Both the position numbers and the translations under genes were made by a program. A stretch of DNA of 64,000 bases from a virus. This document shows positions 7,244-62,775 of the stretch, piece by piece. The notes beneath the pieces were generated by a model. The model saw only the letters and a list, made by a program, of their open reading frames with translations, was not told where the DNA came from and ran no database searches. Position 1 is the first letter of the stretch, and every line of letters begins with the position of its first letter. The stretch lies in IMG/VR virus record IMGVR_UViG_3300049893_003686, one strand, 5' to 3'.

Positions 7244-7286
7244 GTCGATATACGACGCATATAACTTATTTTCGGAGGAATATACC

Positions 7287-14627: not shown

Positions 14628-17222
14628 ATGAATCCAGGCAAATATACACTACAAGCACAGTCTCTATTTATTGACAGCCAGCGAATTGCTAAAGCATATC
14701 AGCACCAGGCAATTGAGCCCGAGCATATGCTGAAGGCACTATTGCAAAATAAGCATGTCTGCAGTGCATTAAGCAAATATACTATCATTAGCGAGCTTGA
14801 GCGTAAAATAGATTTAGAACTACATAAGATACCTCAAGTGCAGGCAGTGAATTATTTGTCACCACGATTTCTTAAAATTGCTTCTGCAGCAGAGGTAATC
14901 GCTACAAAAGCAAACGTTAAGACCGACATAGTGCATTTCTTACTAGCTCTTACCGACGCACGTGTAAATACTTCGATGAGCGGAAGAATATTGCGCGATG
15001 CGGGCTTGACCAGAGAGTATATCGAAGGTGGTATGGCAAGAGCTGGTAAGCCAAAGCAGAAAGCAACAACGGACTCTGCAGTTAGCAAATACGCCATTGA
15101 TCTCACTCAGCGCGCTAGGGACGGGAAAATAGACCCTATAATTGGCAGGGACGAGGAGATACGTAGAATCATTCAGGTTCTCTCCCGACGTTCGAAGAAT
15201 AGTCCAATTCTAATAGGCAAACCAGGTGTAGGGAAAAATACAATTATAAATGGGCTTGCACAGCGAATTGCGGCAGGAGATGTCCCATCCCCACTAATAG
15301 ATTGTAGAATCATGGCGCTAGATATGGGAGCGCTGTTGGCCGGAGCATCATTGCGTGGCCAATTCGAAGAGCGCATGAAGGCAGTAATTGCTGAGGTAAA
15401 TCAAGAAGATGAGAATATCATTTTGTTTATCGATGAAATCCATACATTGGTAGGAGCCGGTGGAGAGGGGGCATCTGATGCTAGTCAGATGCTAAAACCC
15501 CCGCTTGCTCGTGGCGAGATTCAGGTACTTGGAGCTACCACACCAGACGAATATCGCAATTCAATCGAGAAAGATAAGGCTTTGGAGCGTAGATTCCAAC
15601 CCATTCTTGTCGAAGAACCATCATATGATGAGACATTGCGAATTTTACGCGGAATAAAGACCAAATATGAAGTTCATCACGGGGTTCGCATCCAAGATGC
15701 TTCCCTATCTGCTGCCATAAAGTTCTCACAACGGTATATATCTGGACGACATCTACCAGATAAAGCCATTGATTTAATTGATGAGGCAGCCTCTAGGTTG
15801 CGGGTGGCAATAGATTCTGTGCCAGATGAGCTTGATAGTGAAAGTAGAAAGCTAACTCAATTAAAGATGGAATTAGCTGCAATTCATGGTGACTCTGGAC
15901 ACGATACGCACGAGCATAAGAGTAGATTGGAGCATCAAATTTCAGAGGCGGAGAAATCAGTATCAGGATTGAAGTCCAGATGGGAATCCGAGGTTAGCCT
16001 TATACAATCAATTAGGGCTATCAAGGAAGGTATAGAAGAGTCTAGCGCTAAGCTAGAATCCGAAACTAGAAGTGGAAATATAAGCAAGGCCTCAGAATTA
16101 AAGTACGGACAACTACAACGTCTAAAGGCAGATTTAGAAGTAACTACACGCGATTTAAAATCACTACAAAAAGATGCCCCGCTTATCAAAGAAGAGGTAG
16201 ATCCTAGCGATATTGCCGGCGTAGTAGGTGACATTACAGGAATTCCAATTGCATCAATGCTAGAGTCCGAAAAGGAAAAGCTGCGCAACATGGAACAGTA
16301 CTTATCATCACGTGTAATTGGACAAAAGGAGGCATTAAAGGCGATATCTCAAGCCATTCGCCGTAGTCGCTCAGGCCTTAATGATCCAAATCGACCAGTA
16401 GGTAGCTTCTTTTTTCTGGGCCCAACAGGTGTCGGGAAAACTGAGTTAGCTAAAGCGCTTACCCAATTTCTCTTTGATGACGAACGATCTATGATTCGCT
16501 TGGATATGAGTGAATTCCAAGAAAAGCATACTGTAGCGCGACTTATCGGAGCTCCTCCAGGATATAAAGGTGCCGATGATGGAGGGCAATTAACTGAAGC
16601 CGTCAGACTTAAACCATACTCAGTCATCCTATTTGACGAAGTAGAAAAAGCGCACCCTGATATATTCAATATATTATTGCAAGTACTTGATGATGGTCGA
16701 CTAACAGATAGTCAGAGTAGGCTCGTAGATTTCAAGAATACGGTTATTATTATGACATCAAATGTAGGTTCGCAGCATCTACTTACAGCTACAGCCAGTG
16801 ATGGCAGTCTGCCTGATGAGGCAAAAAATGCAGCATTCTCCGATCTACGAAAGTTATTTAGACCAGAATTTCTTGGAAGAATTGATGACGTAATCATGTT
16901 TCACGGTCTCACCAGAAATAATATAGAACATATTGCCAACATTCAACTAAAGAAAGTTTCAGGAATGTTGGCGACACGTAAATTAACGATGAATATATCA
17001 GAAGCAGCACTTAAGGCCATAGTAGATGCTGGGTTTGAGCCACAATTCGGAGCACGACCATTAAGAAGAGCAATCCAGCGTTGGCTGCAAGATCCATTAT
17101 CTTCAGCTATTCTTGAAGGGGGCTACACAGAAGGTGACACCGTATCTGTAGATTTAGCAGAGGATGATGAAAATACAGGCCTTATATTTAGGCGTATAAA
17201 CACTAATGTGAAAAGCAACTAA
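14628..17222 (+). CDS. clpB: ClpB-type AAA+ disaggregase
   Basis: Clp N-domain, two Walker A loops (GKPGVGKN and GPTGVGKT), a long coiled-coil middle domain between them, and 864 aa. Confidence 0.95.
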   Translation: MNPGKYTLQAQSLFIDSQRIAKAYQHQAIEPEHMLKALLQNKHVCSALSKYTIISELERKIDLELHKIPQVQAVNYLSPRFLKIASAAEVIATKANVKTDIVHFLLALTDARVNTSMSGRILRDAGLTREYIEGGMARAGKPKQKATTDSAVSKYAIDLTQRARDGKIDPIIGRDEEIRRIIQVLSRRSKNSPILIGKPGVGKNTIINGLAQRIAAGDVPSPLIDCRIMALDMGALLAGASLRGQFEERMKAVIAEVNQEDENIILFIDEIHTLVGAGGEGASDASQMLKPPLARGEIQVLGATTPDEYRNSIEKDKALERRFQPILVEEPSYDETLRILRGIKTKYEVHHGVRIQDASLSAAIKFSQRYISGRHLPDKAIDLIDEAASRLRVAIDSVPDELDSESRKLTQLKMELAAIHGDSGHDTHEHKSRLEHQISEAEKSVSGLKSRWESEVSLIQSIRAIKEGIEESSAKLESETRSGNISKASELKYGQLQRLKADLEVTTRDLKSLQKDAPLIKEEVDPSDIAGVVGDITGIPIASMLESEKEKLRNMEQYLSSRVIGQKEALKAISQAIRRSRSGLNDPNRPVGSFFFLGPTGVGKTELAKALTQFLFDDERSMIRLDMSEFQEKHTVARLIGAPPGYKGADDGGQLTEAVRLKPYSVILFDEVEKAHPDIFNILLQVLDDGRLTDSQSRLVDFKNTVIIMTSNVGSQHLLTATASDGSLPDEAKNAAFSDLRKLFRPEFLGRIDDVIMFHGLTRNNIEHIANIQLKKVSGMLATRKLTMNISEAALKAIVDAGFEPQFGARPLRRAIQRWLQDPLSSAILEGGYTEGDTVSVDLAEDDENTGLIFRRINTNVKSN

Positions 17223-17278: not shown

Positions 17279-18409
17279 ATGAAATTCCCTATTATCGAGC
17301 ACACAATTTTACTTACAATAGCAGGCTCTAGGAGTTACGGTATGCACAAAAGTGACTCCGATATAGACCTAAAAGGGATAGCCATCCCTCCTATAGATTC
17401 CTATATTGGAGTTTTACCAAATTTCGAACAAGTAGAGTCATCAGAAGCAATGATGGTATATTATCCTCTACTATCGAATGATGAGAAAGATATTTCAGAT
17501 AAATATAAGCTTGAAGGGGTTATATATGATTTGCGTAAATTCATACGACTGGCATCTGGTTCAAATCCCAATATCTTAGATGTATTATTTTGCGATGATG
17601 AGCACGTCAGGTTCTCATCAAAGGCAGGAGATATCATAAGGGCTAGCAGAGATCTATTCATATCTGCACAGGCTAAGCATACATATTCTGGTTATGCAAC
17701 GGCGCAATTTAAGCGCATTAAGACTCATAGGGGATATCTGCTAAATGCTCCAAAGACAGAGCCAGACAGGAGTGAGTTCGGTCTATCAAAGGACCACTGC
17801 ATTCCACGTGCCCAGGTAGAGGCATCTTTATCAGAGATTAATAAGAAACTTGATGAGTGGGAATTAGATCTTAGCTCTATAGATTCTGAGTCTGACAGAA
17901 TGTCGATATTAAATAATATTGCACAAGTACTATCAGAAATAATGTCAACAACTGACTCTAAATGGAAGAGCTCCGCTAGAAACATCGGCTATGGCGATAA
18001 CCTTATTGAAATTCTAGACAAGGAGCGTAGATTTAGACAGGCTAAGAACGAATGGGATAAATATCAATATTGGAAGAAGGGGCGAAACTCAGCACGAGCG
18101 AAACTAGAAGAAAAATACGGGTATGATACCAAGCACGCTTCTCACTTAGTTAGATTAATGAGGATGTGTTATGAGATTTTAGTAGATGGCAAGGTCAATG
18201 TCAATCGCAAGAAAATAGATGCCGATGAATTAGTTGCGATTCGAGATGGCTCATGGAGCTACGATAAGCTAGAGGAATTCTTTATAACGATGGATAATAA
18301 ATGCAGCGAGCTGTATAATAGTAAGTCATATAGCATTCCACATAGGGTAGATATGAGTGCGATAAATGCATTGTGCGTACAACTCATCTCCGATAAGTAC
18401 AAAATGTGA
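17279..18409 (+). CDS. Pol-beta-superfamily nucleotidyltransferase, RlaP-like (RNA-repair-associated family)
   Basis: The N-terminal GSRSYGMHKSDSDIDLKG matches the G-S-x-x-Y-G..S-D-x-D minimal NTase motif of that family, as I recall it. Confidence 0.6.
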   Translation: MKFPIIEHTILLTIAGSRSYGMHKSDSDIDLKGIAIPPIDSYIGVLPNFEQVESSEAMMVYYPLLSNDEKDISDKYKLEGVIYDLRKFIRLASGSNPNILDVLFCDDEHVRFSSKAGDIIRASRDLFISAQAKHTYSGYATAQFKRIKTHRGYLLNAPKTEPDRSEFGLSKDHCIPRAQVEASLSEINKKLDEWELDLSSIDSESDRMSILNNIAQVLSEIMSTTDSKWKSSARNIGYGDNLIEILDKERRFRQAKNEWDKYQYWKKGRNSARAKLEEKYGYDTKHASHLVRLMRMCYEILVDGKVNVNRKKIDADELVAIRDGSWSYDKLEEFFITMDNKCSELYNSKSYSIPHRVDMSAINALCVQLISDKYKM

Positions 18410-25567: not shown

Positions 25568-25643
25568 GCGCCTGTAGCTCAGCGGATAGAGTACTTGTCT
25601 TCTAAATAAGGTGTCGTAGGTTCGAATCCTACCAGGCGCGCCA
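25568..25643 (+). tRNA. tRNA-Arg (anticodon TCT), CCA encoded
   Basis: Cloverleaf read by hand. Acceptor GCGCCTG/CAGGCGC. D arm GCTC-AGCGGATA-GAGT. Anticodon arm CTTGT-CTTCTAA-ATAAG. Variable loop GTGTC. T arm GTAGG-TTCGAAT-CCTAC. Discriminator G followed by CCA. Confidence 0.9.
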
Positions 25644-30857: not shown

Positions 30858-31628
30858 ATGAGCAGTAATGAACTTGGTTTGAAGATTAAAAGTTTATATG
30901 AAAATCGTACACGACTCTTGCTAGATCAAGATGAGTATATAATTATCAGAATTGATGGTAAGAATTTTTCAAGATATACTCGTAAGCTCAAAAAGCCATT
31001 CGATCAGGATCTTGCAGATGATTTCGACCAAACTGCTAAGATATTGTGCTCTCAAATCATGGGAGCACATATGGCATATACTCAAAGTGATGAGATAAGT
31101 ATTGTAGTTTCGAATTTTAGTTCTTCAGGTAAGGACATCTGGTTTAACGGAAATATACAAAAAATAGTTTCAGTATCATGTTCAATGGCAACAGCATCAT
31201 TTAATGATTCAAGAATAAAGCGAAGTGTTGATTATAAAGGTGGAATTTTTGATTCTAGGGTATTTACAATACCTGATCGCTCATCAGTATTAGAGTATTT
31301 AACCTGGAGACAAAAGGATGCAAGTAGAAATTCCATTTCCATGATTGCAAGAAGCGTAATGAGTAGTAAAGAAATGCATGGAATTTCTACTGGCAAAATA
31401 ATAGAGATTTTAAAAGATAGAGGAATAGACCTCAAAATATATAATCAAGGTCTATTGTATGGAAGAATTATTTTCAAAGAAAAATTTACAGTAACCGCTA
31501 CTCATAGTGAATACGGGATTGCTCAAAATTCTGATTCACTCAGAACAAGATGGGTAGCTAAGACAGCACCAAATTTCTCTAAAGAAGACATTTCCATAGA
31601 ATTGATTCCAGAAAGAAAGCTTTCTTGA
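30858..31628 (+). CDS. Thg1-like protein (tRNA-His guanylyltransferase / 3'-5' polymerase family, TLP)
   Basis: IIRIDGKNFSRYT..KPFDQDLADDF..MAYTQSDEISIV matches the Thg1 palm-domain blocks. Confidence 0.8.
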   Translation: MSSNELGLKIKSLYENRTRLLLDQDEYIIIRIDGKNFSRYTRKLKKPFDQDLADDFDQTAKILCSQIMGAHMAYTQSDEISIVVSNFSSSGKDIWFNGNIQKIVSVSCSMATASFNDSRIKRSVDYKGGIFDSRVFTIPDRSSVLEYLTWRQKDASRNSISMIARSVMSSKEMHGISTGKIIEILKDRGIDLKIYNQGLLYGRIIFKEKFTVTATHSEYGIAQNSDSLRTRWVAKTAPNFSKEDISIELIPERKLS

Positions 31629-37852: not shown

Positions 37853-39460
37853 ATGTCAATATTAAATACCGATGCAACTCAAACTCAGATATATGATAAT
37901 CGACAGATAAGAAATTCTGCTGGCGGCTATTCATTTGCAGTGGAAAATATGGATTATGTGCGGCGATTTCTAATTTTAGGAAGCGAGGGCGCGCAATATA
38001 GCCTACAGAATAGGCCAACTCTGTCGTTAGAGAACTGCCCGCATATATTGTTTATGCTAGATGCCGATGGCCAAAAAGTAGTAGAAGAGCTGGTCAAGGT
38101 ATCATTACAAGGCAGGGCGCCGAAGCAAGAGCCGACACTATTCGTATTAGCACTGGCAGCTAGACATAAGGATCTCGCTGTGCGTAAAGCCGCATTTGAT
38201 GCCGTGCAGAAGGTATGTCGCACAGCAACTATGCTATTTACCTTCTTAGATTTCTATAAAAAGTCCGGGGTGACATCTGGCTGGGGTCGCCTTATGCGAG
38301 ATGCGATATCGTCATGGTATAATAATAAGGATTTGCAATCTTTAATATATCAAGTTACGAAATATGGTAGTAGAAATGGGTGGTCGCATCAAGATGTGCT
38401 ACGTTTAGCACACACAAGGCCAGTAGATCAAGATCATTCTCTGTTATATAAGAAGATTACTTCTAAAAATAAGTTTAATATCGACATCAATATCGCTTCT
38501 GATAAGAATGCTTTTAATAAACTGCTAGCCATTGAAGCGGTGAAATTAGCAACAGAGGCAAAAAGTATCATCCCGTTAATTACAGAATTTAATTTAGTAC
38601 ATGAGCAGGTACCATCATCGCTAAAGCTTTGTCCCGATGTATGGGATGCATTGCTAGATAATATGCCATTAACTGCATTAATTCGTAATCTAGGAGCGAT
38701 GACATCCTCCGGGTTGCTTGTTAATGGAAATAGTGCTTCAAGAAGAGTGAGAGAAAAGCTATCTAATTTAGATACAATTAAGAGTGCAAGAATACATCCA
38801 TTTAATGTACTCACAGCATACAATACCTATGCAAAAGGAGTTGGTCAATTAGGTCACAAAAAATGGAACCCTAGTGAAGATATTATTGAAGCGCTAGATA
38901 GCCTATTCTATACCTCATTTACATTTATAGATCCATCGCATAAGCGCACACATCTCGCTATTGATGTATCGCGTTCGATGGATATGGGTACAATTCTTGG
39001 CTCGCCGGGGATGTCTCCTCGATTCGGCGCAGCCGCAATGTCAATGGCAACGCTGCGTTCTGAGGATAATGTTTCGATGAGCGCATTTTCGCATACATTA
39101 GTACCGCTACAATTTTCACCCAAAGATGATTTGCAGACAGTTATCAAGAAGATGAGGTCTATTAAAATGGGCGCCACAGATTGCGCCCTACCAATAACCA
39201 CTGCCATGCAGTCGAAGACCCCTATTGATACATTTGTTATATATACCGATAATGAAACTTGGTTCGGAAACGTTCACCCAATGGCAGCATTGCGCCAATA
39301 TCGAGATAGAATGGGAATTCCTGCCAGACTCATTGTCGTTGCAATGAAAGAAACAAACTTTACCATTGCAGATCCCGAAGATGCGGGTGCATTGGATGTA
39401 GTTGGATTTGATTCTGCCACTCCAGCTGTCATAGCAGAATTTTCACGCGGGGAGTTATAA
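37853..39460 (+). CDS. Ro60-related TROVE-domain protein with a C-terminal vWA domain
   Basis: The N-terminal NSAGGYSFAVENMDYVRRFLILGSEGAQY is characteristic of Ro/Rsr. The MIDAS DxSxS motif appears as IDVSRSM. 535 aa. Confidence 0.9.
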   Translation: MSILNTDATQTQIYDNRQIRNSAGGYSFAVENMDYVRRFLILGSEGAQYSLQNRPTLSLENCPHILFMLDADGQKVVEELVKVSLQGRAPKQEPTLFVLALAARHKDLAVRKAAFDAVQKVCRTATMLFTFLDFYKKSGVTSGWGRLMRDAISSWYNNKDLQSLIYQVTKYGSRNGWSHQDVLRLAHTRPVDQDHSLLYKKITSKNKFNIDINIASDKNAFNKLLAIEAVKLATEAKSIIPLITEFNLVHEQVPSSLKLCPDVWDALLDNMPLTALIRNLGAMTSSGLLVNGNSASRRVREKLSNLDTIKSARIHPFNVLTAYNTYAKGVGQLGHKKWNPSEDIIEALDSLFYTSFTFIDPSHKRTHLAIDVSRSMDMGTILGSPGMSPRFGAAAMSMATLRSEDNVSMSAFSHTLVPLQFSPKDDLQTVIKKMRSIKMGATDCALPITTAMQSKTPIDTFVIYTDNETWFGNVHPMAALRQYRDRMGIPARLIVVAMKETNFTIADPEDAGALDVVGFDSATPAVIAEFSRGEL

Positions 39461-53743: not shown

Positions 53744-53965
53744 ATGACTGGATTATTAAAGTTACTTGGTGTAGCAGCTGCCGGAGGCGCAGCAGTAGGC
53801 GTTTTAGCGTCGAAAAAAATTAATCAGATGCTTTCTGGTGAAAAAGCCAGAGTTAGTAAGAAGAGAGTTTCAGTAGTAGAAGTACCAGTTGAAGACGGAG
53901 ATCCAGAAGAATTGGATATAGTGGTACTTAAGCGCTCTCGCAAACAATTGAGAGAGCGGGAGTAA
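53744..53965 (+). CDS. Small protein with an N-terminal TM helix and a basic/acidic tail; first gene of the Ubl cassette neighbourhood
   Basis: AAGGAGAA SD. Begins LLKLLGVAAAGGAAVGVLA. Confidence 0.5.
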   Translation: MTGLLKLLGVAAAGGAAVGVLASKKINQMLSGEKARVSKKRVSVVEVPVEDGDPEELDIVVLKRSRKQLRERE

Positions 53966-54097
53966 CAGTTTTAACTTATTACCCATAGCATTGCTATGGC
54001 AAATATTTGTGAAAGAAGATAGTTCACAACAATATCACCTCTGTTGTGGTGCTGAGGTTGGTAGAAGTATAAAAGCACACCACTTTAGGAGAATAGC

Positions 54098-54283
54098 ATG
54101 CAAGATACAGTAATTTTTCAAGGCATTACCTACCACCTTCCAACCGGCCATACTGAAGCTGAAATTCGAGCCGCGCTCGCTGAGCAGGCGCCCTCGATTA
54201 CCACAGCGCAAGTAGTCACCACCCTTAATGGCGATGGTTCAACTACCTGGGAGTTTTCAGAAAAGGCCGGCACCAAGGGCTGA
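54098..54283 (+). CDS. Ubiquitin-like (beta-grasp, Prok_Ub/PRTRC-C-like) protein ending in Gly
   Basis: 61 aa whose C-terminus is ..WEFSEKAGTKG followed by stop. TAGGAGAA SD. A strong terminator follows immediately. Confidence 0.65.
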   Translation: MQDTVIFQGITYHLPTGHTEAEIRAALAEQAPSITTAQVVTTLNGDGSTTWEFSEKAGTKG

Positions 54284-54301
54284 TAGCATTATGCAATAAT
54301 T

Positions 54302-54340
54302 ATGGCAGGAGGTTCTTTAAAAAGCCTCCTGCCATTTTGT
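54302..54340 (+). terminator. Rho-independent terminator directly after the Ubl gene
   Basis: 11-bp perfect stem ATGGCAGGAGG (54302-54312) / CCTCCTGCCAT (54325-54335), a 12-nt loop, then TTTTGTT. Confidence 0.8.
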
Positions 54341-54350
54341 TGGAGAAATA

Positions 54351-54620
54351 ATGAAAGTAAGTAGTTTAAGTGATACTATATATCACATTTTTTTTGGCGA
54401 GGAGTTTCACCATCATGAAAATAATATAACTCGCATCCTCTCATCTAGCTCATTTGATAAACTGCTGCAAGTTTATCAAACCTTGCAACAAGAAGATAAA
54501 AATTATATTTTTGACAGTTGCATTCAGAAAAATGTGGCATCCTCAAGATTTTCGACACGCGATTGTCAAAATATTTTTATGAGAATGAGAGCTGTTGATC
54601 ATAACGCTGATTTCATATAG
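54351..54620 (+). CDS. Hypothetical protein (cassette member)
   Basis: 89-aa ORF with GGAGAAA upstream. Confidence 0.5.
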   Translation: MKVSSLSDTIYHIFFGEEFHHHENNITRILSSSSFDKLLQVYQTLQQEDKNYIFDSCIQKNVASSRFSTRDCQNIFMRMRAVDHNADFI

Positions 54621-54629
54621 GGAATTTCA

Positions 54630-55493
54630 ATGAGACTTAGAGAGCAGCTGGCGGCAGTATTGTTAAATCACGTTTATGTAGTAGAGCACAGTTTAGCTAT
54701 AGGAAGCAGGCATCGAAAACCAACATCCTCTAAATATAATGAGATAAATAGTTTAGATTTCGATGATACTAATGCCGCCGCTAAACTAATAAAATCATTT
54801 GCAACATTTAATGCCAAACATTTTATTGAAAATAATCGCTTCTGCCTAGATAAAGAGATTAGTGAAATTAATGGTCTACATATCGAATGGGCACCCAAAG
54901 TTCTTGTGCGAGGTCTATCCGGCAAGATTATCATATTAGGCATGCCATATATCAAGGCAGCTACTTTTCTAAATGCAATGAGATATGCGCGGCAATCAGA
55001 TGACTGCATTGCGACTATAAGTAATATAGGAGATCTCGCTGGTGCTAGCAGTACCATAGCAGCATCCAACGAGTCTGTCGCCGCAATATCAATCCTAATA
55101 CCTGGGATGAGAACATCTGCATATCTAAATTTAGCTATGGAACAAAGAGATTTAGATATTCTTTTTAGAAAAAAGATTAACTTTGCTAAGATTTTAAATT
55201 TATGTAATTCACTTTCAGCAGATGAGTATCAACAAATTTTAGATGGACAAAGCAATCTCTATGTAGAATTTGTTAACGGTAGTCCATTAGCAGTTCGTTT
55301 AGATGAAACTGATGCTGCACGAGCACAGAGATTAGCACGAGAGGCTTTAGAAGCATTGCGTATAGCAAGGACGATGGTAATAAATGACGTAACCGATACC
55401 TCTAATGCTATTACTTACAATGTAAGTCCAATTAATAACATAGAAAACACACAAGACTTTTCTGTAGATACAGACTTCTTATTCGGATGGTAA
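54630..55493 (+). CDS. Hypothetical protein (cassette member)
   Basis: 287-aa ORF whose stop lies 1 nt before the E2-like gene. Confidence 0.6.
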   Translation: MRLREQLAAVLLNHVYVVEHSLAIGSRHRKPTSSKYNEINSLDFDDTNAAAKLIKSFATFNAKHFIENNRFCLDKEISEINGLHIEWAPKVLVRGLSGKIIILGMPYIKAATFLNAMRYARQSDDCIATISNIGDLAGASSTIAASNESVAAISILIPGMRTSAYLNLAMEQRDLDILFRKKINFAKILNLCNSLSADEYQQILDGQSNLYVEFVNGSPLAVRLDETDAARAQRLAREALEALRIARTMVINDVTDTSNAITYNVSPINNIENTQDFSVDTDFLFGW

Positions 55494-55494
55494 A

Positions 55495-56205
55495 ATGTTA
55501 GACATAAAAATTTCGGATGCAGGAACAACTTTAGGCTACACAGATCATGCTGGAAACAAAAGCGTAAAGGGAATCGATCTATCAGATTTAATAAAGGTAT
55601 TATCGGCAAATGTTGGATTCGATATGGGGTTTCTACCTATTGGTACCAGATACTTAGGTACCAGGGGAGAGCAAACTCATATTGTAATCGAGAGACCAGC
55701 TAGCACATATAAAATAAAGTTTGATGCAAGAAATTCATTGCCAGCTTATGAAATTGAAGATGTTAAGTTACCGCCGGCACTAATATTCTTCTGTTTGTCA
55801 AAAGCAAATGATGCTTATTTTGTTAGCGATTCACGAATATTTGCTATGGCGCAAAATCATATTATGCTTGGAATAGATGGATTATACAAGTATCCAACGC
55901 CCAATATTTATTCCGATGCCCGCATTTGTTGGGGTCAAAATGACGATGGAAATAAGAATTTTAAATCACTGGCAGCATTAAATGGTATCGTACAGAGATT
56001 TTTCACAGCGCCGTTTAATGATGACCTGTTTGGCACTACCATGGTCCAAACCTCATTTCCATGGGCGGGAAGCACAGGAGGAGCAATGGGGTATTTTAAA
56101 CAGCTGGTAAATCAACCGTTTGATAATAAATGGCTCGTGCCAGCGACAAATGAATTTAAGAACTTCGAAACAGCAGTCAAAACTATATTTAAGACTGGAG
56201 TATAA
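55495..56205 (+). CDS. E2/UBC-like protein (prokaryotic E2 family)
   Basis: YPTPNIYSDARICWGQ (aa 133-148) parallels the UBC HPN..C active-site block. The candidate catalytic residue is Cys145 (nt 55927-55929). Confidence 0.6.
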   Translation: MLDIKISDAGTTLGYTDHAGNKSVKGIDLSDLIKVLSANVGFDMGFLPIGTRYLGTRGEQTHIVIERPASTYKIKFDARNSLPAYEIEDVKLPPALIFFCLSKANDAYFVSDSRIFAMAQNHIMLGIDGLYKYPTPNIYSDARICWGQNDDGNKNFKSLAALNGIVQRFFTAPFNDDLFGTTMVQTSFPWAGSTGGAMGYFKQLVNQPFDNKWLVPATNEFKNFETAVKTIFKTGV

Positions 56206-56208
56206 TAT

Positions 56209-57372
56209 ATGAGCAACTCTCAGAATTTAGATTTAAAAACATTAATGGCCAGACAAAATACTGGATATATAACAGATGTGCAGTGGCCTACCGATCTCAA
56301 TCTTATTAAACCTATCAATTATATTGTTAGGCGAGATGGGTTATGGGAAATGCGTAAATCTCGAGCAGGAGTATTTGTGATGCAACGTGAGAAATTTGCC
56401 ACGCCACTACCGGGATTTCCTGAAGAAAATAATGTAGAATATGGACAAAGTCATTTCGGTAAGATCCCAGATGTTCTATTTAAGGAAATCATTGCATTTT
56501 TTAAGTCAATTTGTGATGAAAGCAAGGATGAAGCATATATACAGACATTCTGGGATCCTCTTGAAAAGAAGTGGTTTAATCACGTTCCAGTGCAACGTGT
56601 GAGTGGAGCGTCAGTTAATTTCGAACGCAACGTAGAACTAGAATCAAGATGCAACTTAGTATTAGAGACTCATTCCCATAATACCATGGAAGCATTCTTT
56701 TCTGGAACTGACAATGCGGACGAGAAGAGTGATAGGTTCTTTGGCGTAATAGGTCGATTAAATCAGAGCGTCCCCACTATGCTCTTTTCATTTGTTTGCG
56801 GTGGGAAAAGAGTTATTATAAATAAATCAGATATATTCGAATCAGAACCAGAGGTATCGTTTCCTTCTGATTGGAAGCAACGCATCACCAAATCTCAACC
56901 ACATCAGTCAAATTTATATTCTGGAGCTACTGGCTACACTCCACGTGCATATAATAACTATAAGTATAGCACTAGCCTAGCATATGAAGGCGAGGATGAT
57001 GTAGATGAAGCCATTTCAGAAGCGCGTCGTCGTTTAGGAGGTGCGACTACCAACCAACGTTTTTTTCCTCAAAACGCGAGAAGCGTAAACGAGACAAGCG
57101 CAACAGAAAAGGACGCTAATGCGAGCATTAGCAATATTATAACAAAGTTTAAGACATATGGAGTAACAATGACAAGAGTAGCAAAGCAGCGGATGTTTGA
57201 GAGTCTCATATCTCTTATGTCTGATGATGATGTAATTGATCTGGTCGGCTGTTTATTGGAAGCTGGACACGAGGAGACTATTGTAGCCTTGTTGCCAGAA
57301 GGGACAGTTGGTGCCGTTGAAGTAGATTTGACTGAAGCAAATAATGCGACAGAATTTGATTATAACGACTAA
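56209..57372 (+). CDS. JAB/JAMM metalloisopeptidase-domain protein with a long C-terminal extension
   Basis: Exact JAMM motif H155-S-H157-x7-S165-x2-D168 (ETHSHNTMEAFFSGTD, nt 56671-56712) with an upstream conserved-type Glu (KDEAY). Confidence 0.85.
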   Translation: MSNSQNLDLKTLMARQNTGYITDVQWPTDLNLIKPINYIVRRDGLWEMRKSRAGVFVMQREKFATPLPGFPEENNVEYGQSHFGKIPDVLFKEIIAFFKSICDESKDEAYIQTFWDPLEKKWFNHVPVQRVSGASVNFERNVELESRCNLVLETHSHNTMEAFFSGTDNADEKSDRFFGVIGRLNQSVPTMLFSFVCGGKRVIINKSDIFESEPEVSFPSDWKQRITKSQPHQSNLYSGATGYTPRAYNNYKYSTSLAYEGEDDVDEAISEARRRLGGATTNQRFFPQNARSVNETSATEKDANASISNIITKFKTYGVTMTRVAKQRMFESLISLMSDDDVIDLVGCLLEAGHEETIVALLPEGTVGAVEVDLTEANNATEFDYND

Positions 57373-57381
57373 GGTGTATAC

Positions 57382-58239
57382 ATGACAAAGATCAATTCTT
57401 TAAATATAGAGCGCATTTATCCGCTAAAGCCTCAACCTAATATACATAATATCTTAGTTATAGGCTGCGGCGGAACAGGCAGCTATATAGTTCCTAATCT
57501 AGTAAGACTGGCGGTAAATGGCAAGCATCCAGTATGTATCACACTTGCTGATGCTGATATTGTTGAGCATAAGAATCTTATTAGGCAGAATTTCATCAAA
57601 TCAGATATAGGTAGAAATAAAGCAGAAGTTCTTGCAAGCAGATACTCTGCTGCATTCGGCACACAGCTTCAATTTATTCCAAAATACCTAGAGACAGCAG
57701 AAGCCATCGGCACAGCTTTATCTAAAGCTCAGATTAATAACATCTCCTATGGAAAGGCAACCCCGCTAATTATTTCGTGCGTCGATAATATTAAATCACG
57801 AAAGAAAATGATTGAGGCTCTGACACTGCATTACCCACGTGGAGCATATATAATTGATTGCGGAAATGAAGAGATGACCGGACAGGTGCTGCTGACATGC
57901 CTTACTACTACTAATACTCCAGCTGCCGGGCTCTATAGCACTCCGCATCTTTTTCAGTTATTTCCTGAATTAAATGAGAGGGAGAAGAATGATAAACTAG
58001 CTAGTGAATTAAGTTGCGCAGAGCTAGCAGAGTCATCAGAACAATTTGGGTTCGTAAATCTTAATGCGGCCACAATTGCTCTAAATTTCATTCATATGTT
58101 GTTAAATAGAAGCCATATATCAACATATATGACTGAGTTTTCAATAGAAAATAAATTCTCTCAGCGCTCTCTTAAAGAATCCGCCCTTAAATCTTGGGCA
58201 TCGTTTGGCCTAAATCCAGATATTGCTACAGTTAAATGA
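57382..58239 (+). CDS. ThiF/MoeB/E1-like adenylyltransferase
   Basis: Rossmann loop VIGCGGTGSY, then DADIVEHKNLIRQNF and GRNKAEV. Confidence 0.85.
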   Translation: MTKINSLNIERIYPLKPQPNIHNILVIGCGGTGSYIVPNLVRLAVNGKHPVCITLADADIVEHKNLIRQNFIKSDIGRNKAEVLASRYSAAFGTQLQFIPKYLETAEAIGTALSKAQINNISYGKATPLIISCVDNIKSRKKMIEALTLHYPRGAYIIDCGNEEMTGQVLLTCLTTTNTPAAGLYSTPHLFQLFPELNEREKNDKLASELSCAELAESSEQFGFVNLNAATIALNFIHMLLNRSHISTYMTEFSIENKFSQRSLKESALKSWASFGLNPDIATVK

Positions 58240-58253
58240 CAGGAGTATAACTG

Positions 58254-58994
58254 ATGCGGAGCCTCACCTTTGCAGAAAAATACACGTTCACATCGGACTT
58301 CTCTCCACTTAACATGAGTTTGATAGCGCAAACAGAATCAAAGGAGCTTGCAAGAAAATACTTCTTTACAAAATACTTTGTACCATTAGCCTTAACTGCC
58401 TGGTATCAAGTAGAAGATTTTTCGCCGGCGGATAAATCACATTGTATTTCAATTGAGTTATCTCACAGTGAAAATGGGCTAATGCCTATATTATCTTTTA
58501 TAAAGACAATCACATCAGACAGAACTCATTTCCCTAAAGAGATCTATGAAAAGATATGTAGAATGGTATTTACGAAGCACACGCCTGATACATGGCTTGT
58601 AAATCATGATCAAAACATTAATTTCGACAGAATCCTACATTCAGTCTTTCACGATTGTCTTCCTGAAGAAGGTAAAAATATTTTCAATACAATGCTTGGC
58701 TCTATTAGACGAGCATATATCGGAACTTTGGGTGGATATAAAGTTTCACTCAGTATCATGGTCAAGACGAAGGACAAAGTTCCCTCTCAGCGTGCCCTAT
58801 TTAATCAAGCAGTGCATAAATCGGACCCATTAATCCTAGTTAATTCACAGAAATATAATAAAATGTTTAATGAAATTACTGGTAAATGGGCATCTCCTTG
58901 TAACAAATCATCCGAAAGCATATGCGCAGCATGTAATGCTATATATAACAGTCCAGCTGCTGATAATGCCTATGATGATCCTACAATAACATGA
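58254..58994 (+). CDS. Hypothetical protein (last co-directional gene of the cassette)
   Basis: 246-aa ORF with a GGAG SD. Confidence 0.6.
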   Translation: MRSLTFAEKYTFTSDFSPLNMSLIAQTESKELARKYFFTKYFVPLALTAWYQVEDFSPADKSHCISIELSHSENGLMPILSFIKTITSDRTHFPKEIYEKICRMVFTKHTPDTWLVNHDQNINFDRILHSVFHDCLPEEGKNIFNTMLGSIRRAYIGTLGGYKVSLSIMVKTKDKVPSQRALFNQAVHKSDPLILVNSQKYNKMFNEITGKWASPCNKSSESICAACNAIYNSPAADNAYDDPTIT

Positions 58995-61353: not shown

Positions 61354-62775
61354 ATGGAACGAGATTGGCGAAAAACATTGACTAGAGTGGTAAATCAGCT
61401 CAATAGGCCTATAGTTAGAAATCTGTCTAAATTCTCATTTCTCCTTCTTGAGACACTTGATATGGTCAAGCGACGTGATCCGATAACGATCACAGCCGCA
61501 GGACTAAGCATGGCCAATGCTATAGCAGAATCGTTTAATCTACCACAACTAACTCCACTAGAATCATATCTGGCTACACTAGATATTGAGCGCGGATATG
61601 GATATTTACCACAATTAGTATTCACTTCCAATCTATTCTCTTCTTTAGACAAAGAAGTCATATTCGCCTCAGAACATGAGGAATTAATAGAGCTCAGGCC
61701 TACAAAAGACAGCTCGCTGTATATTATTCAATATAAAAATACAACAGATTCATATAAGCAGCTAAGAAGAGATGATGTTGGAATGGATTTCTTCTATTCC
61801 AGTACATTAGATTTTAACCTTCTATTTGATAAATTATGGAGCTTATACCCATTTGGAATTTTTTTAAAGAGGAATAAACAGACACAAACTCTAGAGCTAA
61901 AATCACTACCAGCAACAACACCAGAGTATGTAGGTAAGTATAATTTAGAAGAGTTTTGTGCAAGATTAAAGAAAGCACATGATGAGGGAATCTCAAGGTC
62001 TTTCCTATTTCACGGACCTCCTGGTGTAGGAAAAACAACATCAGTATTACAGATAGCGTATAGGCATTTCAATAGAATTATTAAAATAGATCCCGCTATT
62101 GCCAGAACATTAGAGACCGGTGAATTAGAATTCTTCATCAATCAGCTTAAGCCACAAATTATTGTTTTTGAAGACTTTGATAGGGCATATAATTCTGTTG
62201 ACGTGGCGCTATTTATGATAGAAAATATAAAGCAGTCACATCCAGATGTTGCCATATTTGCAACAGTGAATAATCTCAATAAGTTAGACTCAGCGCTATT
62301 GAGACCCGGCAGATTTGATAAATTAATGTACTTCGGCTATCCTCAAGATCATGAATACGAGGCGATAGTTGATATGTACTTCAGCAAATACAATGCATCT
62401 GTAACGAAAGAGCAGAGATTACAGATAGCTTCCAGTGTTATAGGTTTAAGTCCAGCATATCTTAAAGAACTAGCTATAGAGAGTAGAAATTTTTCTGAAA
62501 CATCATTTGATCAAGAATTAGCCGATGCTATTGATGAGTATAAGCAGAGAATAGCTAGAGAAAAGTTAGATTTTGAAAATGCGGCCGAGGTAGATTCAAC
62601 TGAAGAAAATGATTCTGCTAGTGAAAACTTACGAACAATAGATATAGATGAAGGCTTGTCTTTGCTTAGTGAGATAAAGGCCGGACTATCTTCAGAAGAT
62701 TGGGAATCTCTTAAAGATCAACTCGTTGAGATGTATGCTAGAGATGCAGATCCGGAACAAATAAAGGAATTATAA
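61354..62775 (+). CDS. Classic AAA-family ATPase
   Basis: Walker A GPPGVGKTT, Walker B IIVFEDFD, and the second region of homology ATVNNLNKLDSALLRPGRFD. Confidence 0.85.
   Translation: MERDWRKTLTRVVNQLNRPIVRNLSKFSFLLLETLDMVKRRDPITITAAGLSMANAIAESFNLPQLTPLESYLATLDIERGYGYLPQLVFTSNLFSSLDKEVIFASEHEELIELRPTKDSSLYIIQYKNTTDSYKQLRRDDVGMDFFYSSTLDFNLLFDKLWSLYPFGIFLKRNKQTQTLELKSLPATTPEYVGKYNLEEFCARLKKAHDEGISRSFLFHGPPGVGKTTSVLQIAYRHFNRIIKIDPAIARTLETGELEFFINQLKPQIIVFEDFDRAYNSVDVALFMIENIKQSHPDVAIFATVNNLNKLDSALLRPGRFDKLMYFGYPQDHEYEAIVDMYFSKYNASVTKEQRLQIASSVIGLSPAYLKELAIESRNFSETSFDQELADAIDEYKQRIAREKLDFENAAEVDSTEENDSASENLRTIDIDEGLSLLSEIKAGLSSEDWESLKDQLVEMYARDADPEQIKEL

What the first reader, a model, noticed from the sequence alone, without database searches (positions are those of the whole stretch)
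53744..58994. Ubiquitin-like conjugation cassette in a phage-like genome: Ubl ending in Gly, E2-like, JAB/JAMM, E1-like
Seen in the sequence:
- 54098..54283 encodes a 61-aa protein that terminates ..EKAGTKG-stop. Its C-terminal Gly is therefore exposed without any need for processing.
- 55495..56205 contains YPTPNIYSDARICWGQ, which mirrors the UBC/E2 HPN-x(n)-Cys active-site block. The candidate catalytic residue is Cys145 (nt 55927-55929).
- 56209..57372 carries an exact JAMM motif, HxHx7Sx2D (ETHSHNTMEAFFSGTD).
- 57382..58239 opens with the ThiF/MoeB/E1 Rossmann loop VIGCGGTGSY followed by DxDxVxxxNLxRQ.
- These genes and three or four small unknown ORFs are co-directional. The enzyme genes are separated by only 1-14 nt.

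Established knowledge: this component set matches the computationally defined prokaryotic Ubl/E2/JAB/E1 operons from the Iyer, Burroughs and Aravind analyses. From memory, the gene order also matches the TIGRFAM PRTRC cassette (E, C=Ubl, F, B, A=JAB, ThiF). Related Bil and CBASS Cap2/Cap3 systems act as host antiviral defences.

Inference: this cassette sits in a virus-like gene context, and no ParB-like partner is visible in the window. It may be used by the element itself. Possible uses are tagging virion or host proteins, or intercepting or deconjugating a host Ubl-based defence. The JAB protein has a C-terminal extension of about 180 aa with no motif I recognise. A classic AAA ATPase lies 3 kb downstream.
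Basis: partly seen in the sequence, partly recalled or inferred. Interest (0 to 1): 0.85.

Follow-up and report, generated by a model that had tools for sequence, protein, structure and literature searches.

The report
Ubiquitin-like tagging cassette in jumbo phage
An uncultivated giant bacteriophage carries a complete, apparently working set of ubiquitin-like protein-tagging genes (tag, E1, E2 and a removing protease); it belongs to a little-studied family that also occurs in other large phages, where the tag gene is often multiplied like eukaryotic polyubiquitin.

Summary
Window 54098-58239 encodes four parts.
- A 61-aa beta-grasp Ubl that ends at Gly61.
- A UBC-fold E2 with invariant Cys145.
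- An intact JAMM peptidase.
- A single-domain ThiF-type E1 with invariant Cys212.

All four best match the PRTRC / Iyer-2006 "6d" family. All score below the curated PRTRC cut-offs, and ParB, PRTRC_E and PRTRC_F are missing.

The cassette sits in an uncultivated jumbo-phage clade (contigs up to 368 kb). Its enzymes have diverged in step with the flanking helicase, dUTPase and Dam genes.

The same Ubl / small protein / large protein / E2 / JAB / E1 layout recurs in 49 IMG/VR contigs and in isolated phages of Bacillus, Salmonella and Vibrio. The Ubl there is often amplified, as tandem genes or 2-6 fused units that each end G-x-K-G. A small partner protein ending [DS]-[FY]-[IV] also recurs.

Best reading: an active phage-encoded Ubl conjugation cascade that serves the phage. 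Its targets are unknown.

It is a new variant of a known but biochemically uncharacterised kind. Acinetobacter phage ME3 already carries a "PRTRC protein A" annotation. Interest is about 0.68.

The parts
54098..54283 (+). Ubl (61 aa), a PRTRC_C / Prok_Ub-type beta-grasp modifier made in mature form. It ends ...AGTKG with Gly61 exposed.
54302..54335 (+). Terminator-like hairpin (13-bp stem plus a T-run) directly after the Ubl gene. It is a possible attenuator that gives more Ubl transcript than enzyme transcript.
   Evidence: A hairpin of different sequence sits at the same position in sister locus L007 (6816-6841) but not in L005. Its function is inferred.
54351..54620 (+). o89, a small helical accessory protein ending ...NADFI. 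It belongs to a recurrent cassette component defined by a C-terminal [DS]-[FY]-[IV]. Its role is unknown.
   Evidence: Orthologues end DFI or DFV. Equivalent small proteins next to the E2 in Bacillus, Salmonella and Vibrio phages and in at least 13 of 25 IMG/VR E2 clusters end SFV, DYV, DYI, DFI, DFV and similar. The strict motif [DS][FY][IV] ends 0.7% of all ORFs in those loci; the cluster count used a looser pattern. No HMM hits.
54630..55493 (+). o287, a fast-evolving, predominantly helical-looking accessory protein (from its sequence pattern) in the position that PRTRC_F holds in canonical cassettes. It is a candidate specificity or adaptor factor. Function unknown.
   Evidence: Only 13 representatives among 1.84 billion proteins. 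Conserved N-terminal KEKLAAxLxNHWYV and a C-terminal EET..ARA.R..RERLE..RRRT...W. No profile link to PRTRC_F (hhalign probability 0.1), to PDB, or to Pfam, NCBIfam, PHROGs or PADLOC.
55495..56205 (+). E2-like conjugating enzyme (236 aa, Pfam Prok-E2_D). Catalytic candidate Cys145 lies in P134-x-x-N137-x7-C145-x-G147.
56209..57372 (+). JAB/JAMM metallopeptidase (387 aa). It has an N-terminal JAB-N-like region, a JAMM core (E108, H155, H157, S165, D168), and a C-terminal extension of about 160 aa that is specific to phage versions.
   Evidence: Pfam Prok-JAB 27.7 bits, above the cut-off of 25; TIGR03735 E=4e-14. JAMM residues are invariant across nine lineages. Canonical PRTRC_A (213 aa) lacks the extension.
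57382..58239 (+). E1-like adenylating enzyme (285 aa, single ThiF/MoeB-type domain). It has the G28-x-G-G-x-G33 loop, D59, R68/Q69, the Mg-binding D135 and invariant Cys212.
   Evidence: Pfam ThiF E=3.6e-17; TIGR03736 E=2.2e-34 (119 bits, cut-off 145). Invariant residues. C212 aligns with E. coli ThiF Cys184. The nearest solved relatives are ThiF, UBA3, MccB and UBA5, over the adenylation core only.
58254..58994 (+). o246, a clade-specific protein of unknown function directly after the E1. Membership in the system is doubtful.
   Evidence: Conserved only in the window's clade at 29-38% identity. Other phage lineages carry unrelated genes after the E1, such as NADAR or RVT_3, or nothing. No family hits.

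Best explanation
Window 54098-58239 is a complete and probably active ubiquitin-like protein-conjugation cassette. It belongs to the PRTRC / Iyer-2006 "6d" lineage, in a phage-specific form. It is carried and vertically maintained by an uncultivated jumbo-phage clade for the phage's own use.

Proposed mechanism:
1. The 61-aa beta-grasp Ubl is made ready to use, with Gly61 exposed (shown).
2. The ThiF-type E1 binds ATP-Mg and adenylates Gly61. The Ubl is then probably passed to the invariant Cys212 (inferred from motifs and from alignment with ThiF Cys184).
3. The Ubl is passed as a thioester to Cys145 of the UBC-fold E2. The fold and the invariance are shown; the chemistry is inferred.
4. The Ubl is attached to lysines of targets that are still unknown. 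The fast-evolving o287 and the small o89, with its conserved D-F-I C-terminus, are candidate specificity or adaptor factors (inferred).
5. The JAMM peptidase removes the tag. In related phages that encode capped, tandem or polyubiquitin-like precursors, it would also release mature Ubl (inferred).

The Ubl gene is amplified in related phages and a terminator-like hairpin follows it here. Both suggest the Ubl is consumed stoichiometrically as a tag, not used catalytically. The targets could be host proteins (takeover or counter-defence) or phage or virion proteins. This is not resolved.

For: Catalytic residues are invariant across divergent phage lineages and canonical PRTRC proteins:
- E2 C145 and N137.
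- JAMM E108, H155, H157, S165 and D168.
- E1 D135 and C212. C212 aligns with ThiF C184.
- The Ubl G-x-K-G C-terminus in 119 of 120 members.

Phage context: NAD salvage, ligase, ClpB-like, Thg1-like, Ro-like, dUTPase, helicase and Dam genes. Sister contigs of 142-368 kb are fully syntenic, and one of them is in IMG/VR.

Vertical retention: divergence of E2, JAB and E1 (48-70% identity) tracks that of helicase, Dam, AAA and dUTPase, with the same ranking L005 > L008 > L007.

Recurrence: the E2-JAB-E1 trio keeps the same order in Bacillus phages WH1, Edson and KLEB27-3, Salmonella phage Arash and Vibrio phages D69, D181 and D148. It also occurs in 49 of 76 IMG/VR loci, falling into 25 E2 clusters.

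Ubl dosage:
- Two tandem genes in L005 and L007.
- Five tandem genes in L011.
- Fused repeats x2, x4, x5 and x6, each ending G-T-K-G, with short C-terminal caps.

Expression in a cultured phage: GenBank labels Arash gp246c (E1) and gp248c (E2) "structural protein". This rests on LC-MS of sucrose-gradient particles.

Not a known defence system: PADLOC shows only generic E1 Rossmann similarity to Cap2.
Against: - No biochemical data exist for any PRTRC/6d system. Adenylation, thioester transfer and isopeptide formation are all inferred.
- All four proteins fall below the curated PRTRC cut-offs.
- The downstream His that Iyer et al. describe as absolutely conserved in this E2 family is replaced in the phage E2s. 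Canonical FTHPN becomes PFN-x-DL.
- The E1 lacks the Zn-binding CxxC pairs of ThiF, and it aligns to solved E1s only over residues 13-150.
- No E3 and no target is identifiable.
- The "structural" label in Arash comes from a preparation in which 116 of 272 proteins were detected, including RNR and a dNMP kinase. The authors themselves allow for carry-over.
- Related host systems (Bil, CBASS) are defences, so a defence role for the phage-borne system cannot be excluded.
Confidence: 0.65

Rival explanations
1. The cassette is a phage-carried defence or superinfection-exclusion system. Like host Bil systems, it would conjugate the Ubl to structural proteins of competing phages, or other mobile elements, that enter the same cell.
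For: The experimentally studied bacterial Ubl/E1/E2/JAB systems (Bil, type II CBASS) are antiphage, and Bub is predicted to be (PMC11601596; PMC10557695). Iyer et al. 2006 already speculated that such systems protect against invasive replicons. Large phages are known to carry defence genes (own knowledge).
Against: No PADLOC match beyond generic E1 similarity. The cassette is syntenic and co-diverges with core replication and nucleotide genes across the clade, and it recurs in 25 E2 clusters of large phages. That is unlike a variable accessory island. Canonical relatives sit on conjugative plasmids and ICEs next to ParB, SNF2 and DUF932 genes, not in chromosomal defence islands. None of this is decisive.
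Confidence: 0.15
2. The Ubl system acts in the phage's own particle. The Ubl would be attached to, or assist assembly of, virion proteins. Alternatively, the enzymes are packaged and ejected into the next host. This is a more specific version of the main explanation.
For: WH1 gp211, the five-unit poly-Ubl, is annotated "virion structural protein". Arash E1 and E2 are annotated "structural protein", and Gp246-249 and Gp251 were detected by MS in gradient-purified particles with 95-430 spectra. High Ubl gene dosage fits modification of abundant structural targets. Lambda gpI (Ubl) and gpK (JAB) already link a Ubl and a JAB to tail assembly (PMC12908700).
Against: The basis of the WH1 annotation could not be traced; no paper is in the library. 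The Arash preparation also contained many metabolic enzymes. In the window, the cassette lies among replication and nucleotide-metabolism genes rather than in a structural module. Numbering in the paper and in GenBank may not correspond exactly.
Confidence: 0.2
3. The cassette does not conjugate proteins. It would be a ThiS/MoaD-like sulfur-carrier or other small-molecule adenylation pathway, or it would act only through the JAB peptidase or as a Ubl decoy against host Ubl-based defences.
For: The E1's nearest solved relatives include ThiF, MccB and TcdA, which are not protein-conjugating. MoaD and ThiS are among the top structural neighbours of the Ubl. C212 aligns with ThiF C184, which serves sulfur transfer.
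Against: A UBC-fold E2 with an invariant Cys is always present. No rhodanese, cysteine desulfurase, ThiG or MoaE partner is encoded in the cassette. Poly-Ubl precursors and tandem Ubl genes make no sense for a catalytic carrier. Retention of all four components over long divergence argues against a JAB-only role.
Confidence: 0.05

Closest known systems
PRTRC cassette (TIGR03734-03742), equal to operon type "6d" of Iyer, Burroughs and Aravind 2006 (Pfam Prok_Ub, Prok-E2_D, Prok-JAB, ThiF)
   Same: The four core proteins give their best HMM hits to this family. The order Ubl...E2-JAB-E1 is the same. The Ubl G-x-K-G C-terminus, the E2 P-x-x-N-x7-C-x-G block, the JAMM residues and the E1 Cys are all shared. 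The cassette is also carried by a mobile element.
   Different: - All scores fall below the curated PRTRC cut-offs.
- There is no ParB, PRTRC_E or PRTRC_F. Unrelated o89-type and o287-type proteins occupy those positions.
- The JAB has a C-terminal extension of about 160 aa.
- The E2 lacks the family's downstream His.
- The Ubl is made mature here, whereas the canonical protein has a 3-7 aa tail. In related phages it is amplified or fused into poly-Ubl.
- The host element is a lytic-type jumbo phage, not a plasmid or ICE.
- The family itself has no experimentally known function.
Bil (BilABCD, operon type 6C) antiphage system
   Same: Separate Ubl, E2, JAB and E1 genes, with conjugation through Cys thioesters to lysines (PMC11601596).
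   Different: The Bil E1 is a multidomain IAD-AAD-CYS protein, its E2 is of the CEHH type, and its Ubl often has 2-3 beta-grasp domains that are not cleaved apart. Here the E1 is a 285-aa single domain, the E2 is Prok-E2_D, and the Ubl is a single 61-aa unit. Bil is host-encoded defence; this cassette is phage-encoded.
Type II CBASS Cap2/Cap3 (operon type 6B)
   Same: An E1-type adenylation domain with weak similarity (PADLOC E1-E2 models, E about 1e-10 over residues 22-90), plus a JAB partner.
   Different: Cap2 is an E2-E1 fusion that conjugates the CD-NTase itself. Here there is no CD-NTase, no fusion, and a dedicated Ubl is present.
Bub (operon type 6E / DUF6527)
   Different: Bub works through Ser and Tyr oxyesters, lacks catalytic cysteines, and uses a DUF6527 serine protease. 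Here both cysteines are invariant and the peptidase is JAMM.
Lambda / T1 tail-assembly gpI (Ubl) with gpK (JAB + NlpC/P60)
   Same: A phage-encoded beta-grasp domain with a C-terminal Gly, paired with a JAB peptidase.
   Different: It involves cleavage only, with no E1 or E2. It lies inside the tail module, and the Ubl is fused to a structural domain.
Eukaryotic polyubiquitin genes, and ubiquitin genes of giant eukaryotic viruses
   Same: Related phages encode head-to-tail Ubl repeats with a short C-terminal cap, or di-Ubl with a one-residue cap. These must be cut after each terminal Gly.
   Different: The Ubl family is different (Prok_Ub, 57-61 aa, ending G-T-K-G rather than R-G-G). The presumed processing enzyme is a JAMM peptidase. 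The window itself has a single Ubl gene.

Membership tests
PRTRC system (NCBIfam/TIGRFAM TIGR03734-03742) | The ThiF-family protein reaches the TIGR03736 cut-off (144.75 bits). | tested here: not met
   It is the best hit, but at 118.9 bits (E=2.2e-34).
PRTRC system (NCBIfam/TIGRFAM TIGR03734-03742) | PRTRC_A (JAB), PRTRC_B (E2) and PRTRC_C (Ubl) reach their cut-offs (101.8, 131.45 and 45.95 bits). | tested here: not met
   Scores are 52.6, 24.4 and 16.3 bits. Each is the top or only NCBIfam hit.
PRTRC system (NCBIfam/TIGRFAM TIGR03734-03742) | PRTRC_E and PRTRC_F proteins are present. | tested here: not met
   No NCBIfam hit for o89 or o287 at E<=0.1. hhalign of the o287 profile against Cupriavidus PRTRC_F gives probability 0.1. 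tblastn of PRTRC_E and PRTRC_F against the window finds nothing.
PRTRC system (NCBIfam/TIGRFAM TIGR03734-03742) | An associated ParB-family protein (TIGR03734). | tested here: not met
   tblastn of Cupriavidus PRTRC ParB against the whole window gives only E>5 noise. None is present in the syntenic sister loci either. The rest of the window was not HMM-scanned for ParB.
PRTRC system (NCBIfam/TIGRFAM TIGR03734-03742) | Gene order C(Ubl) - F - B(E2) - A(JAB) - ThiF on one strand. | tested here: met
   Window order is Ubl, o89, o287, E2, JAB, E1. The Cupriavidus plasmid order is ParB, E, C, F, B, A, ThiF.
Iyer et al. 2006 operon type 6d (Pfam Prok_Ub / Prok-E2_D / Prok-JAB / ThiF) | A small standalone beta-grasp Ubl with a conserved C-terminal Gly. 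| tested here: met
Iyer et al. 2006 operon type 6d (Pfam Prok_Ub / Prok-E2_D / Prok-JAB / ThiF) | An E2/UBC-fold protein with a conserved Cys. | tested here: met
Iyer et al. 2006 operon type 6d (Pfam Prok_Ub / Prok-E2_D / Prok-JAB / ThiF) | An absolutely conserved His downstream of the E2 Cys. | tested here: not met
   Canonical ...AFTHPNH... aligns with phage ...PFNDDLF... The His column is D, N or S in all phage lineages.
Iyer et al. 2006 operon type 6d (Pfam Prok_Ub / Prok-E2_D / Prok-JAB / ThiF) | A JAB peptidase with a complete JAMM motif. | tested here: met
   Prok-JAB at 27.7 bits, above the cut-off of 25. E108, H155, H157, S165 and D168 are invariant.
Iyer et al. 2006 operon type 6d (Pfam Prok_Ub / Prok-E2_D / Prok-JAB / ThiF) | A JAB-N domain with strictly conserved Arg and Trp. 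| tested here: inconclusive
   An N-terminal region of about 100 aa is present, and TIGR03735 aligns from residue 80. W115 and W222 are invariant, but no Arg is invariant in my nine-sequence alignment.
Iyer et al. 2006 operon type 6d (Pfam Prok_Ub / Prok-E2_D / Prok-JAB / ThiF) | An E1-like adenylating enzyme without a rhodanese domain, adjacent to the JAB. | tested here: met
   285 aa with a ThiF domain only, 9 nt after the JAB gene.
Iyer et al. 2006 operon type 6d (Pfam Prok_Ub / Prok-E2_D / Prok-JAB / ThiF) | [quoted passage not shown] | tested here: inconclusive
   o287 holds the position and has conserved polar residues. It shows no detectable homology to PRTRC_F.
Bil (6C), type II CBASS (6B) and Bub (6E) | Bil: a multidomain IAD-AAD-CYS E1 and a CEHH E2. 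CBASS: an E2-E1 fusion plus a CD-NTase. Bub: an E1 and E2 without Cys, plus a DUF6527 protease. | tested here: not met
   The E1 is a single 285-aa domain. The E2 is a separate gene of the Prok-E2_D type. Both Cys are invariant. No CD-NTase or DUF6527 hits appear.
ThiS/MoaD sulfur-carrier pathways | A partner sulfur-transfer or synthase enzyme (ThiG, MoaE, rhodanese or a desulfurase), and no E2. | tested here: not met
   None of these is among the cassette ORFs, and an E2 is present.

The most novel reading that the evidence does not exclude
Large bacteriophages of many lineages encode their own complete ubiquitin-like conjugation pathway. It includes polyubiquitin-style precursor genes and a conserved small partner protein with a D-[FY]-[IV] C-terminus. 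They would use it offensively or structurally, tagging host or virion proteins during infection. That would be the first virus-side counterpart to the host Bil and CBASS ubiquitin-like defences. It would also imply that the whole PRTRC family, including the plasmid and ICE versions, is a tool of invading mobile elements rather than a host defence.
Probability: 0.4. Interest if true: 0.85.

Novelty: new variant of a known kind. Interest (0 to 1): 0.68.

Why it matters
Three bacterial ubiquitin-like operon families (type II CBASS, Bil and Bub) have been characterised since 2022, and two of them (CBASS and Bil) have been shown to be host antiphage defences. The PRTRC/6d family has been known on paper since 2006, but I found no experimental study of it in the library searched.

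This work shows three things:
- A distinct form of the family is maintained by purifying selection in jumbo phages.
- It recurs in dozens of large viral contigs.
- Culturable phages of Salmonella, Bacillus, Vibrio and Acinetobacter also carry it.

That makes two questions directly testable: what the family does, and whether viruses of bacteria use ubiquitin-like tagging themselves.

The polyubiquitin-like Ubl arrays are a striking parallel to eukaryotic ubiquitin genes. If the system modifies host or virion proteins, it would add a new layer to phage-host conflict. It would also supply compact, orthogonal protein-tagging parts: a 61-aa tag, a 285-aa E1 and a 236-aa E2.

Tried and rejected
- blastn of the cassette against 50,697 phage records found no match. 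The clade has no close cultured relative; the helicase's best listed phage matches are only about 24-27% identical.
- The search for related loci with the single JAB protein returned only one locus. A narrower E1 alignment worked.
- o287 gave no Pfam, NCBIfam, PHROG or PADLOC hit. An exhaustive phmmer search found only 13 relatives of the same length. There was no link to PRTRC_F by hhalign or to PDB. I therefore rejected calling it PRTRC_F.
- MAFFT alignments of the o89-like and o287-like proteins across lineages are unreliable. Only the C-terminal motif of the small protein is a robust shared feature.
- PDB profile search with the E1 aligns only residues 13-150. hmmalign of ThiF did not reach Cys212. 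The Cys212 to ThiF Cys184 equivalence rests on MAFFT --add alone.
- The AAA ATPase 3 kb downstream (weak PADLOC IetA- and TRIP13-like hits) is syntenic only within this clade. It is absent next to cassettes of other lineages, so I did not count it as part of the system.
- Literature searches found no functional study of PRTRC and no report of a full Ubl/E1/E2/JAB set in jumbo phages. No paper on phage WH1 was found.
- I considered contamination by a plasmid or bacterial fragment and rejected it, given the PHROG hits, the IMG/VR membership of the sister contig, and 142-368 kb syntenic contigs.

Full report
**1. Observation**

- A 61-aa ORF (54098-54283) ends ...EKAGTKG-stop.
- A 236-aa ORF (55495-56205) contains YPTPNIYSDARICWGQ, with Cys145 at nt 55927-55929.
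- A 387-aa ORF (56209-57372) carries H155-x-H157-x7-S165-x2-D168.
- A 285-aa ORF (57382-58239) carries VIGCGGTGSY and DADIVEHKNLIRQ.
- The gaps between the enzyme genes are 1, 3, 9 and 14 nt.

HMM scans place the four proteins in one system.
- Pfam: Prok-E2_D (E=2.9e-8) and Prok-JAB (E=2.6e-6) are above their gathering scores, and ThiF scores E=3.6e-17. Prok_Ub is weak (E=1.5e-3) but aligns to the very C-terminus.
- NCBIfam: the best hits are PRTRC_ThiF (2.2e-34), PRTRC_A (4e-14), PRTRC_B (1.6e-5) and PRTRC_C (8e-3). All fall below the curated cut-offs.

Chance cannot explain four adjacent hits to the four components of one cassette.

**2.

*Conserved residues.*
- E2: Cys145, Pro134, Asn137 and Gly147 are invariant in all 51 sequences, including canonical PRTRC_B.
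- Ubl: the C-terminal G-x-K-G is present in 119 of 120 family members.
- JAB: all JAMM residues are invariant across nine divergent lineages.
- E1: Asp135 and Cys212 are invariant. MAFFT places Cys212 on E. coli ThiF Cys184, the crossover-loop cysteine. The phage E1 lacks ThiF's Zn-binding CxxC pairs.

**3. Genomic context**

The window is phage-like. All genes point the same way. They include NAD-salvage enzymes, DNA ligase, a ClpB-like ATPase, CCA-adding and Thg1-like enzymes, a Ro-like protein, an S8 protease, dUTPase, a helicase, Dam and one tRNA.

The E2 has about a dozen relatives of 50-64% identity, on contigs up to 368 kb. Three such loci are perfectly syntenic with the window from the S8 protease to the NUDIX gene. 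One of those contigs is in IMG/VR.

Divergence of E2, JAB and E1 (48-70% identity) tracks that of the flanking helicase, Dam, AAA and dUTPase genes, with the same ranking of the three relatives. The accessory ORFs o89, o287 and o246 evolve faster, at 28-45% identity. So the cassette has been inherited vertically under purifying selection in this clade. It is not a recent accessory insertion.

No cultured phage is close: blastn finds nothing, and the helicase's best listed phage matches are only about 24-27% identical.

**4. Relation to canonical PRTRC**

An annotated Cupriavidus conjugative plasmid shows the order ParB, E, C (Ubl), F, B (E2), A (JAB), ThiF. The phage keeps C...B-A-ThiF. It differs in five ways.
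- It has no ParB, E or F.
- Two unrelated proteins sit between the Ubl and the E2.
  - o89 is small and ends ...DFI.
  - o287 has only 13 representatives among 1.84 billion proteins, and no link to PRTRC_F or to PDB.
- Its JAB is about 160 aa longer than PRTRC_A.
- Its E2 lacks the downstream His that Iyer et al. 2006 describe as absolutely conserved (FTHPN becomes PFN-x-DL).
- Its Ubl is made mature, whereas canonical PRTRC_C carries a 3-7 aa tail after the Gly.

It is therefore a divergent relative, not a strict member. It is also not Bil (6C), CBASS (6B) or Bub (6E), whose defining architectures it fails.

**5. The same architecture in other large phages**

tblastn with the E1 finds the E2-JAB-E1 trio, in order, in several isolated phages.
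- Bacillus jumbo phages WH1, Edson and KLEB27-3.
- Salmonella phage Arash.
- Vibrio phages D69, D181 and D148.

A 220-kb Bacillus velezensis "plasmid" carries it too.

An E1-profile scan of IMG/VR gives 76 loci, many on contigs of 100-265 kb. 49 of them have E1, JAB and E2 within 7 kb, and these fall into 25 E2 clusters at 50% identity or more.

The layout is always Ubl(s), then a small and a large protein in either order, then E2, JAB and E1.

Acinetobacter jumbo phage ME3 (2016) already carries the GenBank annotations "PRTRC system protein A" and "ThiF". So the presence of such genes in a jumbo phage has been noticed at annotation level. I found no paper that discusses a complete Ubl cascade in phages. 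The 2021 Aravind-lab jumbo-phage survey does not mention it.

**6. Ubl amplification**

A Ubl HMM shows that the modifier is often multiplied.
- Two tandem genes occur in the sister phages.
- Five tandem genes occur in L011.
- Fused head-to-tail repeats occur in several phages and elements.
  - Many metagenomic proteins have two units, with one-residue caps.
  - pAD3 and three IMG/VR contigs have four units.
  - WH1 gp211 has five units, then a 15-aa cap. It is annotated "virion structural protein".
  - Four IMG/VR contigs have six units.

Each unit ends G-T-K-G. This mirrors eukaryotic polyubiquitin genes. It implies processing after each Gly, presumably by the JAB, and stoichiometric consumption of the Ubl.

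In the window, a 13-bp-stem terminator-like hairpin follows the Ubl gene. A different hairpin sits at the same place in L007, but none is found in L005.

**7. Mechanism and role**

*Shown:* the folds, the motifs, the invariant catalytic residues, the operon structure, vertical retention, and recurrence across phage lineages.

*Inferred:*
- ATP-dependent adenylation of Gly61 by the E1.
- Thioester relay from Cys212 to Cys145.
- Isopeptide formation on unknown targets.
- Reversal and precursor maturation by the JAB.
- Adaptor roles for o89 and o287.

The biological role is open. Hints of virion association exist. Arash E1 and E2 are labelled "structural" after LC-MS of sucrose-gradient particles, and WH1's poly-Ubl is labelled "virion structural protein". 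These hints are weak, because the Arash preparation contained 116 proteins, including metabolic enzymes.

A defence or superinfection-exclusion role, as in Bil, cannot be excluded. It fits poorly with core-like vertical inheritance. A sulfur-carrier role is unlikely, given the E2, the JAB and the poly-Ubl genes.

**8. Verdict**

It is a new, phage-specific variant of a known but biochemically uncharacterised kind. It is widespread in large phages and directly testable in culturable phages.

Interest is 0.68. Confidence in an active conjugation cascade used by the phage is 0.65.

Noticed in passing
L001 829-1728 (Bacillus phage vB_BceM_WH1 gp211); L010 2027-2764 (B. velezensis pAD3); L003 2391-3182 (Vibrio phage D69 VPHD69_0307); L022-L025, L027, L071, L074 (IMG/VR): Polyubiquitin-like genes: 3, 4, 5 or 6 head-to-tail Ubl units, each ending G-T-K-G, followed by a short C-terminal cap. 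WH1 has five near-identical 57-aa units plus a 15-aa cap and is annotated "virion structural protein". Di-Ubl proteins with one-residue caps (N, K, A or H) are common in metagenomes.
   Followed up: partly
L005 6347-6529 and 6603-6788; L007 6272-6457 and 6596-6781; L011 1055-1944: Tandem separate Ubl genes: two in the window's sister phages and five in L011. The window itself has a single Ubl gene, and only 132 nt separate o73 from the Ubl.
   Followed up: partly
window 54351-54620 (o89), and equivalents in L001, L002, L003, L010 and many IMG/VR loci: A small protein (76-183 aa) lying between the Ubl and the E2 ends in [DS]-[FY]-[IV]-COOH in most phage lineages (DFI, DFV, DYI, DYV, SFV). One lineage has EYF or GYI. 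At least 13 of 25 E2 clusters have one; that count used the looser pattern [DSEG][FY][IVFY]. The strict motif [DS][FY][IV] ends 0.7% of all ORFs. No explanation yet. It could be a docking tail for one of the enzymes or a second E1 substrate.
   Followed up: partly
L032, L033, L035, L040-L042, L047, L048, L065-L067, L069, L073, L075 (IMG/VR contigs of about 170-190 kb); L055 5008-5223: In a large lineage the candidate modifier (64-66 aa, with a Ubl-like sequence pattern) ends ...TGSKA, so Ala replaces Gly. L055 has a PRTRC_C-like protein ending ...VGTKA. The terminal residue can therefore be Gly or Ala.
   Followed up: partly
L002 50-307 (Salmonella phage Arash, near the end of the record): The real Ubl ORF (MSTSIRATVVHIPGRDARTL...FSRRTGTKG, 66 aa, with about 30 homologues in metagenomes) lies in a different reading frame from the annotated gp251c (102-320). 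The translation of gp251c looks out of frame. The Ubl gene appears to be mis-annotated in GenBank.
   Followed up: partly
L003 5982-6948 (Vibrio phage D69): The E1 match starts at about 5998, but the annotated CDS VPHD69_0301 starts at 6193 and lacks the GxGGxG loop. A 29-aa minus-strand ORF is annotated over the true N-terminus. The start is likely mis-annotated.
   Followed up: no
L012 12437-14995; L041, L047, L048, L065, L067, L075: The JAB gene, and in some loci the E1 gene, is split into two pieces by an insert of about 270 aa (a faint LAGLIDADG hit in L012). This suggests invasion by a homing endonuclease, intron or intein.
   Followed up: no
L091 (Acinetobacter phage vB_AbaM_ME3) 1846-3164 and 5815-6867: This cultured jumbo phage has an E2-like ME3_136 (a BFVD structural match), ME3_135 annotated "PRTRC system protein A", and ME3_130 annotated ThiF. 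The genes are separated by a tRNA and several small ORFs, so the cassette is looser here.
   Followed up: partly
window 54302-54335; L007 6816-6841: Strong terminator-like hairpins of different sequence lie immediately after the last Ubl gene and before the o89 homologue. None is found at that place in L005.
   Followed up: partly
window 58254-58994 (o246): A clade-specific protein directly after the E1. It has conserved cysteines near the C-terminus and a conserved ...SPAAxNAYDDP tail. No family hit. Other lineages carry NADAR or RVT_3 (RNase H-like) genes in this position.
   Followed up: partly
window 14628-17222, 30858-31628, 37853-39460, 17279-18409, 6134-8768, 25568-25643: The window carries a rich set of host-like genes typical of huge phages.
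- A ClpB-like 864-aa ATPase.
- A Thg1-like tRNA-His guanylyltransferase.
- A Ro-like RNA-binding protein.
- A CCA-adding-type nucleotidyltransferase.
- NMN adenylyltransferase and Nampt (NAD salvage).
- A tRNA-Arg(TCT).
   Followed up: no
window 61354-62775: A classic AAA ATPase (PF00004) with weak PADLOC similarity to IetA and TRIP13. It is syntenic with the cassette only inside this clade. A functional link, such as unfolding of tagged proteins, is possible but unsupported.
   Followed up: partly
L009 (Cupriavidus plasmid p352-3) 1-14137: The canonical PRTRC cassette sits on a MOBH/MPF_T conjugative plasmid between an SNF2-related gene and DUF3085 and DUF932 genes. From my own knowledge, this neighbourhood resembles plasmid establishment or anti-restriction regions. 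It fits the idea that the whole family serves mobile elements.
   Followed up: no
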